Virus record (IMG/VR): IMGVR_UViG_3300025699_000004
DNA length: 64,000 nt
Source of the DNA: a virus
Direction: 5' to 3' (one strand)
Made by a program: the position numbers and the translations under genes. Of the stretch, positions 54,627-58,567 are shown in pieces. Every line of letters begins with the position of its first letter. Positions within the stretch are counted from its first letter, which is position 1. A model generated the notes under the pieces. It did not search any database. It worked only from the letters and a program-made list of their open reading frames with translations, and was not told the DNA's origin.

Positions 54627-54745
54627 AGTCCCATAGGAGACTCGAACTCCTTTCTTTATTCCCTCTACGATGATCAATCGTTTGCAGTCGTAACTAGTAT
54701 TCTGCTCGTGGAAATAATGCTTTACCGATTATAAGCTAATGGGAC
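54627..54745 (-). ncRNA. tRNA-like RNA with ~46-nt structured insertion in the anticodon arm
   Basis: Acceptor GTCCCAT/ATGGGAC, D-arm GCTT/AAGC, T-arm AGGAG-TTCGAGT-CTCCT, anticodon stem TTATT/AATAA enclosing two hairpins; no CCA. Confidence 0.8.
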
Positions 54746-54749
54746 ACAT

Positions 54750-54766
54750 AAAATGTTAAAGAACTA
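54750..54766 (-). promoter_or_regulatory. rrn-type boxA-like element
   Basis: GTTCTTTAACATTTT 4 nt upstream of the tRNA-like RNA; same 13-mer at 58052-58064. Confidence 0.65.
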
Positions 54767-55390: not shown

Positions 55391-56245
55391 TTAATTGAGT
55401 GCCATGCACTCGTCCCAAACTCTGTTCATCAAGGTTGCATCTGAACCAAGAGTGAGAGAAGTCAATCTATTCTCTGCGATACTTGAAGTTTCAGAAGAAC
55501 GATGAGCTTTGCCATGATTTTGATATTCAGTAATACCATTAACTAAATCCCAAGCAGTTTCGCCTCTGTTGCCCATACCCTTGCTAAAGCGACTGAAGAC
55601 CTCATCTCTGATGTTCTCCGCTCTTTTGGACTCTCCCTTGAACAAACGATTGATAACCTCCCTAGCATCAGTAGGAGTAACAGGAGTTTCTGCTAAAGAA
55701 TAAATAATCTGTTTAGTTTCTGCATAAGCAGATTTGATTTCTTCCATTTGAGTATCTACATACCCCTGCAACTTATCTTCCATCTGCGCAGAATGTTTTA
55801 CCTTAACTACCGATTGACTATCTCTAGCAACCATACCATTTGTGCAAACTAATCTCTCCAACATTTTGTTGATAGTATGCTGAAGTGAACCATCGAACGA
55901 AGTCCAAAAGTAAACCACTTCGTCCATAGTATCCCCTACTTTAGGGTCAATTTCTATTGCATTTTTCTTGCGAAGAGAAAGAAATAACCTGCGACCTCCC
56001 TTGGCAAAACCTGCGGTATCAAAGGTCATATCCAAACCTTCACGAAGTGAATCTACATAATTAAAAGCTTTTGCAGGTTGCATAAGCGGATAAGTTTTAT
56101 TCACGATAGCAACAGGATTATCATTACCATCGAAAACTCCACGATAAGTTGGGAATTCTGAAATCGGGCGAAGAGAGTAATCCTGCTCTGCTCCGATGGT
56201 TTTTAATACTTCTGATACTGAGTTACATTCTGATACGTTATTCAT
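55391..56245 (-). CDS. DUF932-family protein (paralogue 2)
   Basis: VNKTYPLMQPAKAF, TAGFAKGGRRLF, SFDGS, RLVCTNGM, KHS, TAWDLVNGITEY; ATG 56245 has an AAAGGA SD. Confidence 0.85.
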   Translation of the reverse strand: MNNVSECNSVSEVLKTIGAEQDYSLRPISEFPTYRGVFDGNDNPVAIVNKTYPLMQPAKAFNYVDSLREGLDMTFDTAGFAKGGRRLFLSLRKKNAIEIDPKVGDTMDEVVYFWTSFDGSLQHTINKMLERLVCTNGMVARDSQSVVKVKHSAQMEDKLQGYVDTQMEEIKSAYAETKQIIYSLAETPVTPTDAREVINRLFKGESKRAENIRDEVFSRFSKGMGNRGETAWDLVNGITEYQNHGKAHRSSETSSIAENRLTSLTLGSDATLMNRVWDECMALN

Positions 56246-56329
56246 TTTGAATCCTTTTTTTGAGTTAATATTCATAAGACTATAAACACTATACTAAATA
56301 GATTAATTAATGTCAAACTTTTTAATTAA

Positions 56330-57225: not shown

Positions 57226-57600
57226 TTAATTATAAAAAAGTTTTCCATTAATCGCTTTAACGAAATGAGCTTTATAAACTGAGCTACCATCCCCCTTATC
57301 ATAAAAACTATTTCTAGCATAAGGATTGTAAGATGCTTGTCTAATTAAATTAAGAGGGGTGTCCCATATATACCCCCTTACAAAGGCATGAACATTCTTT
57401 CTTTTCTCTTTAATTACTTTTAGTCTGTTCTTCTCATTAACTAGAAAAGAGCAATCATATAAATTAATTTCATCTGAATGTGCTTTAACTAATCCATTTT
57501 GTTTAACAGACCAACAACCTTTATGTAAGTTTCTATATACTTTAACAGGTTTAGAATAGTCTATGTAGTATCTTTTATCTGTTTGATTTAATAATTTCAT
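57226..57600 (-). CDS. Conserved phage protein
   Basis: VYRNLHKGCWSV...KNVHAFVRG...YNPY motif; TTGACA 35 nt upstream. Confidence 0.75.
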   Translation of the reverse strand: MKLLNQTDKRYYIDYSKPVKVYRNLHKGCWSVKQNGLVKAHSDEINLYDCSFLVNEKNRLKVIKEKRKNVHAFVRGYIWDTPLNLIRQASYNPYARNSFYDKGDGSSVYKAHFVKAINGKLFYN

Positions 57601-57644
57601 GTAATCAATATCACATAAGAATTACACCTTGTCAAATAAAATAA

Positions 57645-58107
57645 AAAAACCTCCCCTCTCTGATTAACAACTAAGGTAATAAAGCTTAGTCTCAGAGAGA
57701 GAAGGAGAACGATGAGCTACGAACTCAAAATTAAATTGGTGTGGGGGAGGACTACTGTATACCTCCGACTTTTCGGCATGAACATCAGTTCATAGAGTTC
57801 CTACTTTGTACTACAAATTAGACGTGGTATTAGTCTTTCGCTCATCCGATTGGACTCTGCGTCCCCACCACAGGGAATTTGCATACCTTAGCCCGCTCAT
57901 GACAGGCTTGCTCAGTCACCCACAGGAGAAGCATATCTACTTCTCCAAAGTGTCGGGGGGTAGAGTTTATTTGTTCACCTCGGCAAACAAAAGGATATAA
58001 CCAAAACCTTGCTCTACCGCAGGAATTTATCCTGCGTAACTCCCCTTTATGAAAATGTTAAAGATCAAGTCTTATTTGATTTAATTGAGTTCGACTTTCT
58101 CAATGAT
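57645..58107 (-). ncRNA. Large structured non-coding RNA with group I ribozyme-like core topology
   Basis: Own promoter (TTGACT 58142, TATACT 58119), boxA, more than 10 predicted helices, terminator 57645-57706; no convincing ORF. Confidence 0.75.
58052..58067 (-). promoter_or_regulatory. rrn-type boxA-like element
   Basis: GATCTTTAACATTTT ahead of the structured RNA. Confidence 0.65.
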
Positions 58108-58393
58108 TTATATAGTATACTCTATTATTTGGAATAAGTCAAGAAGTTTTTCTACTTATTTCTATTTTTTATTTTTATTTTATATTTTATTTGTGCTAAG
58201 TCTTTTCTTATCTGTTTAGTTATTTCGATTGTTTCTTCTTCCAATCCTCTAACTAATTTAATTAATGCTCCGTGTTTACTCATGTTATTACAATATAGAT
58301 CAGTATTTAGAATAAGTCAAAGAGTTTATTATTTATTATTATTATTTATAATTTTTTAAAACTTTTTAAAAATCGGCGTTATCTGATTAGAAT

Positions 58394-58567
58394 CTACAAG
58401 AATTTGTGCAATATATTTAATTGATTTAATCCTACATATTTAGCGAAGTAAGAACAGAATTCTGCGATCCTGTGCATTTCCCATCCTTCTTTCCTCATTA
58501 CATCTCCTACTTGAGTATAATCTCCTTTATTCCACATCTCTGTTAATTCGATATATTCTGTTTTCAT
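58394..58567 (-). CDS. 57-aa hypothetical protein (not in the ORF track)
   Basis: MKTEYIELTEMWNKGDY...LNILHKFL. Confidence 0.6.
   Translation of the reverse strand: MKTEYIELTEMWNKGDYTQVGDVMRKEGWEMHRIAEFCSYFAKYVGLNQLNILHKFL

What the first reader, a model, noticed from the sequence alone, without database searches (positions are those of the whole stretch)
57645..58107. Free-standing ~400-nt structured RNA with a group I ribozyme-like core
Seen (minus strand): promoter, boxA and terminator frame an ORF-less, helix-dense, GC-richer segment. The order of elements follows group I topology: P1-like GGAGAAGU.A-GAUA-U.GCUUCUCC with a U.G pair (57946-57925); P2-like GUGAC/GUCAU; P3 GGUAU (57887-57883); J3/4 AAAU; P4 UCCC/GGGA; P6 CGC/GCG with P6a UCC/GGA; P7 GACUA (57835-57831); P3' AUACC; three P8-region hairpins; then AGGUA-UACAG-UAGUCC (P7' at 57754-57750), resembling the S element AAGAUAUAGUCC. 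Deviations: no P5, short J6/7, an A.C opposition beside the G-site, a 5-nt insertion in J8/7, and no interrupted gene or tRNA exons recognised. Inference: a stand-alone ribozyme-derived phage RNA (self-cleaving, circularising or trans-acting), or a new class of large tRNA-associated phage ncRNA.
Basis: partly seen in the sequence, partly recalled or inferred. Interest (0 to 1): 0.85.

Follow-up and report, generated by a model that had tools for sequence, protein, structure and literature searches.

The report
Free-standing manA RNA gene in phage
The flagged stretch is a real, separately transcribed folded RNA of an uncultured phage, but it is the already catalogued "manA" RNA and not a group I ribozyme relative; the unusual part is that it is made as its own gene behind a ribosomal-RNA-style anti-termination leader rather than sitting in front of a gene as a switch.

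Summary
Window 57946-57736 (-) is a full-length match to Rfam manA RNA (RF01745; 81.6 bits, cut-off 55.2, E 5e-21). No group I, GOLLD, ROOL, tmRNA or RNase P model matches even at E<=10. In 25 related loci the manA helices are 93% paired with 21 compensatory pairs. The group I reading is therefore rejected.

The order is sigma70 promoter, small hairpin, boxA (14/16 identical to E. coli rrnB boxA), a variable ~90-nt insert, manA, an intrinsic terminator, then a separate promoter with leaderless geometry for the next gene. boxA is present in 25/25 loci of this long manA subtype and 0/17 of the cyanophage subtype, which sits as a true 5' UTR before gp32 or transaldolase.

tRNA adjacency is not general (1/24). 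This scan has already reported free-standing boxA-led manA genes on other phage DNA. A 2026 preprint reports that manA RNAs build RNA-only cages in vitro. The function in vivo is unknown.

The parts
58114..58142 (-). sigma70-type promoter of the RNA gene (TTGACT, 17 nt, TATACT); inferred start near 58107
   Evidence: An equivalent promoter lies upstream of boxA in 24/25 related loci.
58085..58103 (-). leader hairpin UUGAG (58103-58099) / CUCAA (58089-58085) with a 9-nt loop; it occupies the boxB position of rrn leaders
   Evidence: Alignment A3. The stem co-varies: TTGAG/CTCAA, TTAAG/CTTAA, TCGAG/CTCGA. It is present in 21/24 leaders.
58067..58097 (-). leader pseudoknot: hairpin-loop AAGUC (58097-58093) pairs with GACUU (58071-58067), which abuts boxA
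   Evidence: Six different complementary versions occur in nine leaders (AAGUC/GACUU, GGAU/AUCC, GGGC/GCCC, GAGGC/GCCUC, GGGGC/GCCCC, AAGCU/AGCUU). 0 of 2000 cross-locus permutations reach the observed mean energy.
58052..58067 (-). rrn-type boxA-like element UGAUCUUUAACAUUUU
   Evidence: 14/16 identical to the boxA of the E. coli rrnB leader, read from NC_000913.3. Present in 25/25 subtype-A loci and 0/17 subtype-B loci. In IMG/VR, 20 of 23 promoter-preceded copies of the 15-mer are followed by manA; the other 3 look like coding sequence.
57955..58045 (-). lineage-specific structured insert between boxA and manA (closing stem GGGG/CCCC, three inner hairpins)
   Evidence: -33.5 kcal/mol, z -2.9. 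Relatives carry unrelated hairpin inserts of 0-200 nt at this same place. No Rfam match.
57736..57946 (-). manA RNA core (Rfam RF01745), long subtype
   Evidence: 81.6 bits against a gathering score of 55.2, E 5e-21, model positions 1-192 of 192. Helices are 93.2% paired with 21 compensatory pairs, and 0/500 shuffles reach this. The pseudoknot GUGGG (57923-57919) / CCCAC (57745-57741) switches to GGGAG/CUCCC in the other subtype.
57824..57871 (-). loop-loop pairing inside manA: GUGGU (57871-57867) with ACCAC (57828-57824)
   Evidence: GUGGU/ACC in 16 loci, GUGGC/GCC in 4, one U.G, four end mismatches; Fisher p 4e-4, not corrected for relatedness. The data cannot say whether the contact is within one molecule or between molecules.
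57700..57733 (-). trailer: small hairpin (57727-57713) and a stretch complementary to leader 58101-58077 (possible leader-trailer helix)
   Evidence: Duplex -17.9 kcal/mol, z -3.4 in the window. Comparable or stronger in L074, L102 and L045 but absent in most relatives, so it is not a family feature.
57643..57705 (-). intrinsic terminator: long GC-rich hairpin (57705-57650) and U-run (57649-57643)
   Evidence: Terminators of unrelated sequence sit 22-206 nt after manA in 22/25 related loci.
57598..57635 (-). boundary of the unit: separate promoter (TTGACA, 17 nt, GATATT) with the ATG of the next gene exactly 35 nt from the first -35 base (leaderless geometry, no Shine-Dalgarno); the gene belongs to Pfam Phage_L5_gp82
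   Evidence: The same TTGAC-(34 to 36 nt)-ATG geometry follows the terminator in 17/25 related loci.

Best explanation
The stretch is a self-contained gene for a manA RNA (Rfam RF01745) of a long subtype found in uncultured, mostly marine phages.

Shown: the family identity, the fold, and the conserved order of elements. That order is promoter, leader hairpin with pseudoknot, rrn-type boxA, variable insert, manA core, intrinsic terminator, then an independent leaderless promoter for the next gene.

Inferred mechanism. Host RNA polymerase starts at about 58107. The nascent boxA recruits the host NusB/NusE-based anti-termination complex, as in rRNA operons. That complex protects this untranslated transcript from Rho and may aid co-transcriptional folding. 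Transcription ends at the intrinsic terminator, giving a discrete RNA of about 460 nt, possibly trimmed afterwards. The product acts as an RNA in its own right and not as a 5'-UTR switch.

By analogy with family members studied in vitro (preprint 10.64898/2026.07.01.735769), it probably self-associates through its conserved loops into pentamer-based assemblies. What such assemblies do during infection is unknown.
For: Identity: searches give a full-length manA hit at 81.6 bits. One search shows covariation of the manA helices in 25 homologues. One search shows the pseudoknot co-varying between subtypes.

Free-standing unit: searches give boxA 25/25, upstream promoter 24/25 and terminator 22/25, with terminators of unrelated sequence at variable distance. 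One search shows 17/25 downstream genes with their own -35 and an ATG 34-36 nt away and no Shine-Dalgarno, so a read-through RNA would present an internal AUG without a ribosome-binding site. Downstream genes also differ: gp82-like in the window, mostly an unrelated 84-aa ORF elsewhere.

Contrast: the cyanophage subtype has 0/17 boxA, no terminator hairpin in 14 of 17 loci (in the other 3 the nearest is about 180 nt downstream), and an RBS plus gp32 or transaldolase directly downstream.

boxA: 14/16 identical to E. coli rrnB boxA, in the same promoter-hairpin-boxA order (PMC10250234 for the rrn layout). The promoter-boxA cassette is followed by manA in 20/23 cases.

The leader pseudoknot and the loop-loop pairing show selection on RNA structure beyond the Rfam model. 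The in-vitro oligomers come from the preprint read.
Against: NusB/NusE binding is untested, the host is unknown, and the host's own rrn boxA could not be compared.

Within the window alone the boxA and promoter matches are not beyond chance.

One 7-bp helix of the Rfam model is not formed in this subtype.

A terminator right after an aptamer-like fold is also what a transcriptional riboswitch would look like.

The oligomer data are from a preprint, in vitro, on other family members.
Confidence: 0.8

Rival explanations
1. Cis-regulatory manA riboswitch, the Rfam and 2010 reading. The manA fold senses a ligand and controls formation of the terminator at 57705-57643, so tuning read-through into the gp82-like gene at 57600.
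For: Rfam types the family as Cis-reg, and Weinberg et al. 2010 (PMC2864571) rate it a probable riboswitch. A terminator lies between manA and the next gene on the same strand. The C-rich 3' end of manA (CCUCCCC) could in principle compete for the G-rich arm of the terminator; this is my reading of the sequence and was not tested. The cyanophage subtype really does sit in 5' UTRs.
Against: The next gene has its own promoter placed so that its mRNA would be leaderless, with no Shine-Dalgarno, in the window and in 17/25 relatives. The spacer between manA and terminator varies from 22 to 206 nt, and the terminators are unrelated in sequence. Downstream genes are not conserved. A boxA leader (25/25) is a mark of untranslated stable RNAs, not of mRNA leaders.
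Confidence: 0.1
2. A group I ribozyme-derived stand-alone RNA (self-cleaving, circularising or trans-acting).
For: Several local hairpins occur in an order that can be labelled P1, P4, P6 and P8. In the window sequence itself GGUAU/AUACC and GACUA/UAGUC are complementary. Notes from this scan on enlarged manA relatives report joined ends in environmental RNA; I did not check this.
Against: No Rfam group I model matches even at E<=10. P2, P3 and P7 have 0 compensatory changes and equal column shuffles, and P7 is broken in most relatives. P2 and P7 clash with manA helices that do co-vary. The ACC loop co-varies with the GUGGU loop instead. There is no P5, no G-site context and no exons. UAGUCC is UAAUCC in most members.
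Confidence: 0.02
3. A tRNA-associated large phage ncRNA in the manner of GOLLD or ROOL, functionally tied to the neighbouring tRNA genes.
For: tRNA-Met lies about 500 nt upstream on the same strand. Some manA loci in the 2010 alignment are flanked by tRNAs. GOLLD and ROOL also form RNA-only cages (PMC12286853, listed). A second boxA in this phage precedes a tRNA-like RNA.
Against: Only 1 of 24 related loci has a tRNA within 1.5 kb, and only 4 of 24 have one anywhere in the fetched locus. There is no GOLLD or ROOL match. The tRNA-Met lies outside the unit, upstream of two further promoter-like sites at 58320-58292 and 58142-58114.
Confidence: 0.05

Closest known systems
manA RNA motif (Rfam RF01745; Weinberg et al. 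2010, PMC2864571; cryo-EM assemblies in preprint 10.64898/2026.07.01.735769)
   Same: Full-length covariance-model match above the curated cut-off. It shares the P1 hairpin, the pseudoknot, the GUGACUGA and UAAGGU junction blocks, the GUGGUG and ACCA loops, and the invariant GGUAUACAGUARUCC hairpin. It occurs in marine phage DNA.
   Different: It is not in a 5' UTR: it has its own promoter, boxA leader and terminator. It carries a ~90-nt extra domain 5' of the core. One 7-bp helix of the Rfam model is replaced by a different GAACUGAUGUUC hairpin region. The pseudoknot is GUGGG/CCCAC rather than GGGAG/CUCCC.
rRNA operon leader (boxB-boxA-boxC, rrn anti-termination complex, leader-trailer helix; PMC10250234, PMC4807359)
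   Same: Promoter, then hairpin, then a boxA 14/16 identical to E. coli rrnB boxA, ahead of a long untranslated structured RNA. In the window and a few relatives the leader is also complementary to the trailer.
   Different: The product is a ~200-nt phage RNA and not rRNA. The hairpin loop forms a pseudoknot next to boxA. No boxC was recognised. The leader-trailer pairing is not general. Nus-factor binding is untested.
GOLLD and ROOL RNAs (large phage or prophage ncRNAs that form RNA-only cages; PMC12286853)
   Same: Free-standing, ornate, phage-borne RNAs of unknown function. Members of the family are reported to form closed homo-oligomers.
   Different: No sequence or model similarity. This RNA is much smaller. 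A tRNA neighbourhood is not a general feature here.
Group I intron (Rfam RF00028)
   Same: Only a superficial order of hairpins, and a UAGUCC word in this one sequence.
   Different: No model match, no P3/P7 covariation, no exons, and no P5 or G-site context.

Membership tests
manA RNA (RF01745) | Covariance-model score at or above Rfam's gathering score, over the whole model | tested here: met
   81.6 bits against 55.2, E 5e-21, model 1-192 of 192.
manA RNA (RF01745) | Consensus helices kept by compensatory changes among homologues | tested here: met
   25 loci: 93.2% of cells paired, 21 pairs with changes on both sides, 0/500 shuffles reach this; slid controls give 40-55%.
manA RNA (RF01745) | Pseudoknot between the strand after P1 and the 3' tail | tested here: met
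   GUGGG/CCCAC in the window. It switches to GGGAG/CUCCC in the other subtype; 99.5% paired in 42 sequences.
manA RNA (RF01745) | All helices of the Rfam consensus present | tested here: not met
   The 7-bp helix enclosing the penultimate hairpin aligns with 5 non-pairs and a deletion. This is a subtype difference and not a loss of the fold.
manA RNA (RF01745) | Position in the 5' UTR of a protein gene (Rfam type Cis-reg) | tested here: not met
   A terminator and an independent leaderless promoter separate it from the next gene. The feature is met in the cyanophage subtype.
manA RNA (RF01745) | Homo-oligomer formation (pentamer, decamer, 60-mer) as in the 2026 preprint | not testable with these tools
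   Only the conserved loops, the co-varying loop-loop pair and a palindromic GUAUAC in the invariant loop can be seen.
Group I intron | Match to the Rfam group I model | tested here: not met
   No hit at E<=10 with permissive filters over 57400-58400.
Group I intron | P3 and P7 long-range helices supported by covariation | tested here: not met
   0 compensatory changes. P3 81.6% and P7 68.4% paired, the same as shuffles.
Group I intron | Interrupts a host gene, with flanking exons | tested here: not met
   The unit lies between its own promoter and terminator, and no split gene or tRNA halves are present.
rrn-type boxA anti-termination leader | boxA core sequence, promoter-proximal in an untranslated transcript | tested here: met
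   UGAUCUUUAACAUUUU against E. coli rrnB UGCUCUUUAACAAUUU, 14/16. It starts about 40 nt after the inferred transcript start. Present in 25/25 relatives.
rrn-type boxA anti-termination leader | Binding of NusB-NusE and resistance to Rho | not testable with these tools
   Needs biochemistry or genetics in the unknown host.
GOLLD / ROOL / tmRNA / RNase P | Match to the Rfam model | tested here: not met
   None at E<=10.

The most novel reading that the evidence does not exclude
Long-form manA RNAs are not switches at all but phage-made stable RNAs produced in the manner of rRNA. The phage borrows the host's Nus/boxA anti-termination and folding machinery through a pseudoknotted leader. In some lineages it pairs leader with trailer for end processing, perhaps end joining, as other notes of this scan suggest for enlarged relatives. 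The product then assembles into RNA-only cages or rings inside the infected cell.
Probability: 0.25. Interest if true: 0.75.

Novelty: new member of a known kind. Interest (0 to 1): 0.38.

Why it matters
manA has stood since 2010 as an orphan riboswitch candidate, and a 2026 preprint reports that it builds RNA-only cages in vitro. The genomic logic found here does not fit a 5'-UTR switch: a dedicated promoter, an rRNA-type boxA in 25/25 loci, a terminator, and an independent leaderless promoter for the next gene. For this subtype the RNA therefore looks like the product itself.

This gives a natural expression cassette and clear predictions for testing what manA does in infection: a discrete abundant RNA, yield that depends on Nus factors, and no cis effect on the next gene. 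The split between a free-standing subtype and a gp32/transaldolase 5'-UTR subtype is a useful handle.

The RNA family itself is not new. This scan has already reported the same kind of unit on other phage DNA.

Tried and rejected
Group I reading: rejected.

Known large-RNA families (GOLLD, ROOL, tmRNA, RNase P): no Rfam match at E<=10.

tRNA association: not general.

Leader-trailer bracketing stem as a family feature: strong in the window, L074, L102 and L045, but mean z is only -0.6 over 24 loci. Kept as a side note.

Close cultured relatives of the phage: none. DNA search finds only tRNA matches. Terminase and protease are at most 37% identical to Bacillus or Clostridium phage proteins.

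Whole genome of the window: not held.

Second manA core in the 5' insert, as in 'double-core' relatives noted by this scan: no second manA hit in 57400-58400.

My first two attempts to tabulate the loop-loop pair by regular expression picked the wrong motifs. One search, anchored on alignment columns, is the valid one.

The boxA sequence was not found as a text string in two papers, so it was read from the E. coli genome instead.

Full report
**What is there.** On the minus strand, 58142-57598 reads in this order:
- a TTGACT-17-TATACT promoter (58142-58114)
- a small hairpin (58103-58085)
- the word UGAUCUUUAACAUUUU (58067-58052)
- a ~90-nt multi-hairpin domain (58045-57955)
- a ~210-nt helix-dense core (57946-57736)
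- a short trailer
- a long GC-rich hairpin with a U-run (57705-57643)
- immediately after it, a second promoter (57635-57607) whose -35 starts exactly 35 nt before the ATG of the next gene (57600)

The RNA part is 41-47% G+C in a 22-30% background. As one 463-nt strand it folds with z -5.2 against shuffles.

**Identity.** A scan of the whole window against Rfam 15 gives a full-length match of 57946-57736 (-) to manA RNA, RF01745. The score is 81.6 bits against a gathering score of 55.2. The permissive re-scan of 57400-58400 gives E 5e-21 and nothing else apart from a chance 19-nt pseudoknot hit. No group I, GOLLD, ROOL, tmRNA or RNase P model appears. manA was described by Weinberg et al. 2010 as a probable riboswitch of marine metagenomes, T4-like cyanophages and two gamma-proteobacteria (PMC2864571). 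A 2026 preprint reports that manA RNAs form pentamer-based decamers and a 60-mer cage in vitro through kissing loops (10.64898/2026.07.01.735769).

**Homologues.** The invariant 15-mer of the last hairpin (GGTATACAGTARTCC) found 103 IMG/VR loci, of which 41 carry distinct manA sequences. They fall into two subtypes:
- The window belongs to a ~219-nt form, called subtype A here (25 loci including the window). Its pseudoknot is GUGGG/CCCAC.
- The other, ~205-nt form (17 loci) is the cyanophage type. Its pseudoknot is GGGAG/CUCCC.

**Test of the two structural readings.** On the 25 subtype-A sequences, the manA helices projected from the Rfam alignment are 93.2% paired, with 21 pairs changed on both sides. 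No shuffle out of 500 reaches this, and slid controls give 40-55%. The pseudoknot is invariant within the subtype but switches at two pairs between subtypes.

P7 is paired in only 68% of cells, because the G of UAGUCC is an A in most sequences. P2 and P7 also clash with co-varying manA helices.

The counts are U/A 16, C/G 4, U/G 1, U/U 4, with Fisher p 4e-4 not corrected for relatedness. This is a kissing-loop type contact, and I cannot tell whether it is within one molecule or between molecules.

**Transcription unit.** In subtype A the flanks are as conserved in kind as the core:
- 24/25 loci have a consensus sigma70 promoter.
- 25/25 have the boxA-like word.
- 22/25 have a hairpin plus U-run, by a crude finder that missed the window's long stem. 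These terminators lie 22-206 nt after manA and are unrelated in sequence.
- 17/25 then have TTGAC followed 34-36 nt later by the ATG of a small ORF. That is leaderless-mRNA geometry with no room for a Shine-Dalgarno.

The downstream genes differ: Pfam Phage_L5_gp82 in the window, and mostly an unrelated 84-aa ORF elsewhere.

The cyanophage subtype contrasts in every respect. Its promoter abuts P1. It has no boxA (0/17). A terminator hairpin was found in only 3/17 loci, each about 180 nt downstream. An RBS and gp32 (PF08804) or transaldolase follow within about 15-50 nt in most loci. The '5' UTR' description therefore fits that subtype and not this one.

**boxA.** I read the E. coli rrnB leader from NC_000913.3. 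It runs P2 promoter, boxB hairpin, then TGCTCTTTAACAATTT. The window's motif matches the last at 14/16, and the order promoter-hairpin-boxA is that of rrn leaders (PMC10250234). Of these, 23 lie behind a sigma70 promoter. Nineteen of those are followed by manA by nhmmer, one more is manA cut by the end of the locus, and three look like coding sequence. None of the 84 promoter-less sites is followed by manA. Within the window alone, two boxA-like matches are no more than chance, so the argument rests on conservation. The second copy (54764-54750) precedes a tRNA-like RNA, as note e1-5814128 said.

**Leader structure.** The leader hairpin co-varies (TTGAG/CTCAA, TTAAG/CTTAA, TCGAG/CTCGA). In the nine leaders with a 9-10-nt loop, the loop is complementary to the bases just 5' of boxA, in six different versions. 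No cross-locus permutation out of 2000 does as well. This is a pseudoknot abutting boxA that I did not find described. Between boxA and manA, lineages carry unrelated hairpin inserts of 0-200 nt, and the window's is 58045-57955. In the window the leader (58101-58077) is also complementary to the trailer (57733-57700; -17.9 kcal/mol, z -3.4). That recalls rRNA leader-trailer helices, but it recurs in only a few relatives.

**Mechanism.**
- Shown: family identity, fold, and the conserved cassette.
- Inferred: the RNA is made as a discrete untranslated transcript. boxA recruits host Nus factors to shield it from Rho and to help folding. The product acts as an RNA, probably self-associating as its relatives do in vitro.

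The riboswitch rival keeps about 10%, because a terminator after an aptamer-like fold is what an attenuator looks like. The independent leaderless promoter, the variable spacer, the non-conserved downstream genes and the boxA all argue against it.

**Novelty.** The free-standing, boxA-led use of manA is absent from the papers I could search. However, follow-up reports of this scan have already described it on other phage genomes (e1-5376152, e1-5376160, and enlarged relatives).

Noticed in passing
window 54627-54764 (-): A second boxA-like word (GTTCTTTAACATTTT, 54764-54750) lies behind a TTGACG promoter. It precedes a tRNA-like gene (Rfam tRNA 40 bits, 54745-54627) whose anticodon loop holds a 51-nt insertion. 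ARAGORN did not call it.
   Followed up: partly
L005, L006, L021, L023, L039, L040, L046, L078, L083, L084 and others (IMG/VR): In T4-like cyanophage contigs the short manA subtype sits 30-50 nt upstream of a ~290-aa gene. That gene was confirmed as gp32 (PF08804) for L005, and one locus has transaldolase instead. From general knowledge, T4 gene 32 is autoregulated through a 5' leader pseudoknot, so a link to gp32 control could be worth testing.
   Followed up: partly
window 57598-57635 (-), and the same place in 16 related loci: Genes after the manA terminator have the ATG 34-36 nt from the first base of the -35 hexamer. This implies leaderless mRNAs for these early genes.
   Followed up: partly
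window 58077-58101 with 57700-57733 (-): Leader-trailer complementarity brackets the RNA (-17.9 kcal/mol, z -3.4). Much stronger versions occur in L074 (-30.9) and L102 (-41.5), where the leader pairs with the terminator region. It is absent in most relatives.
   Followed up: partly
window 57749-57763 (-): The invariant loop of the last manA hairpin contains the 6-nt palindrome GUAUAC, which could pair with itself between two molecules. This was not tested.
   Followed up: no
window 57226-57600 (-) and 55391-56275 (-): Neighbouring genes belong to Pfam Phage_L5_gp82 (PF25735) and DUF932 (PF06067). Most other small ORFs around the RNA gene have no family.
   Followed up: partly
PMC2864571 supplementary file 79 (manA.sto), first entries: In the original 2010 alignment some manA loci are flanked by tRNA genes, and one is followed by an annotated terminator and then a tRNA. 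Free-standing instances were therefore already present in the seed data, though typed as Cis-reg.
   Followed up: no
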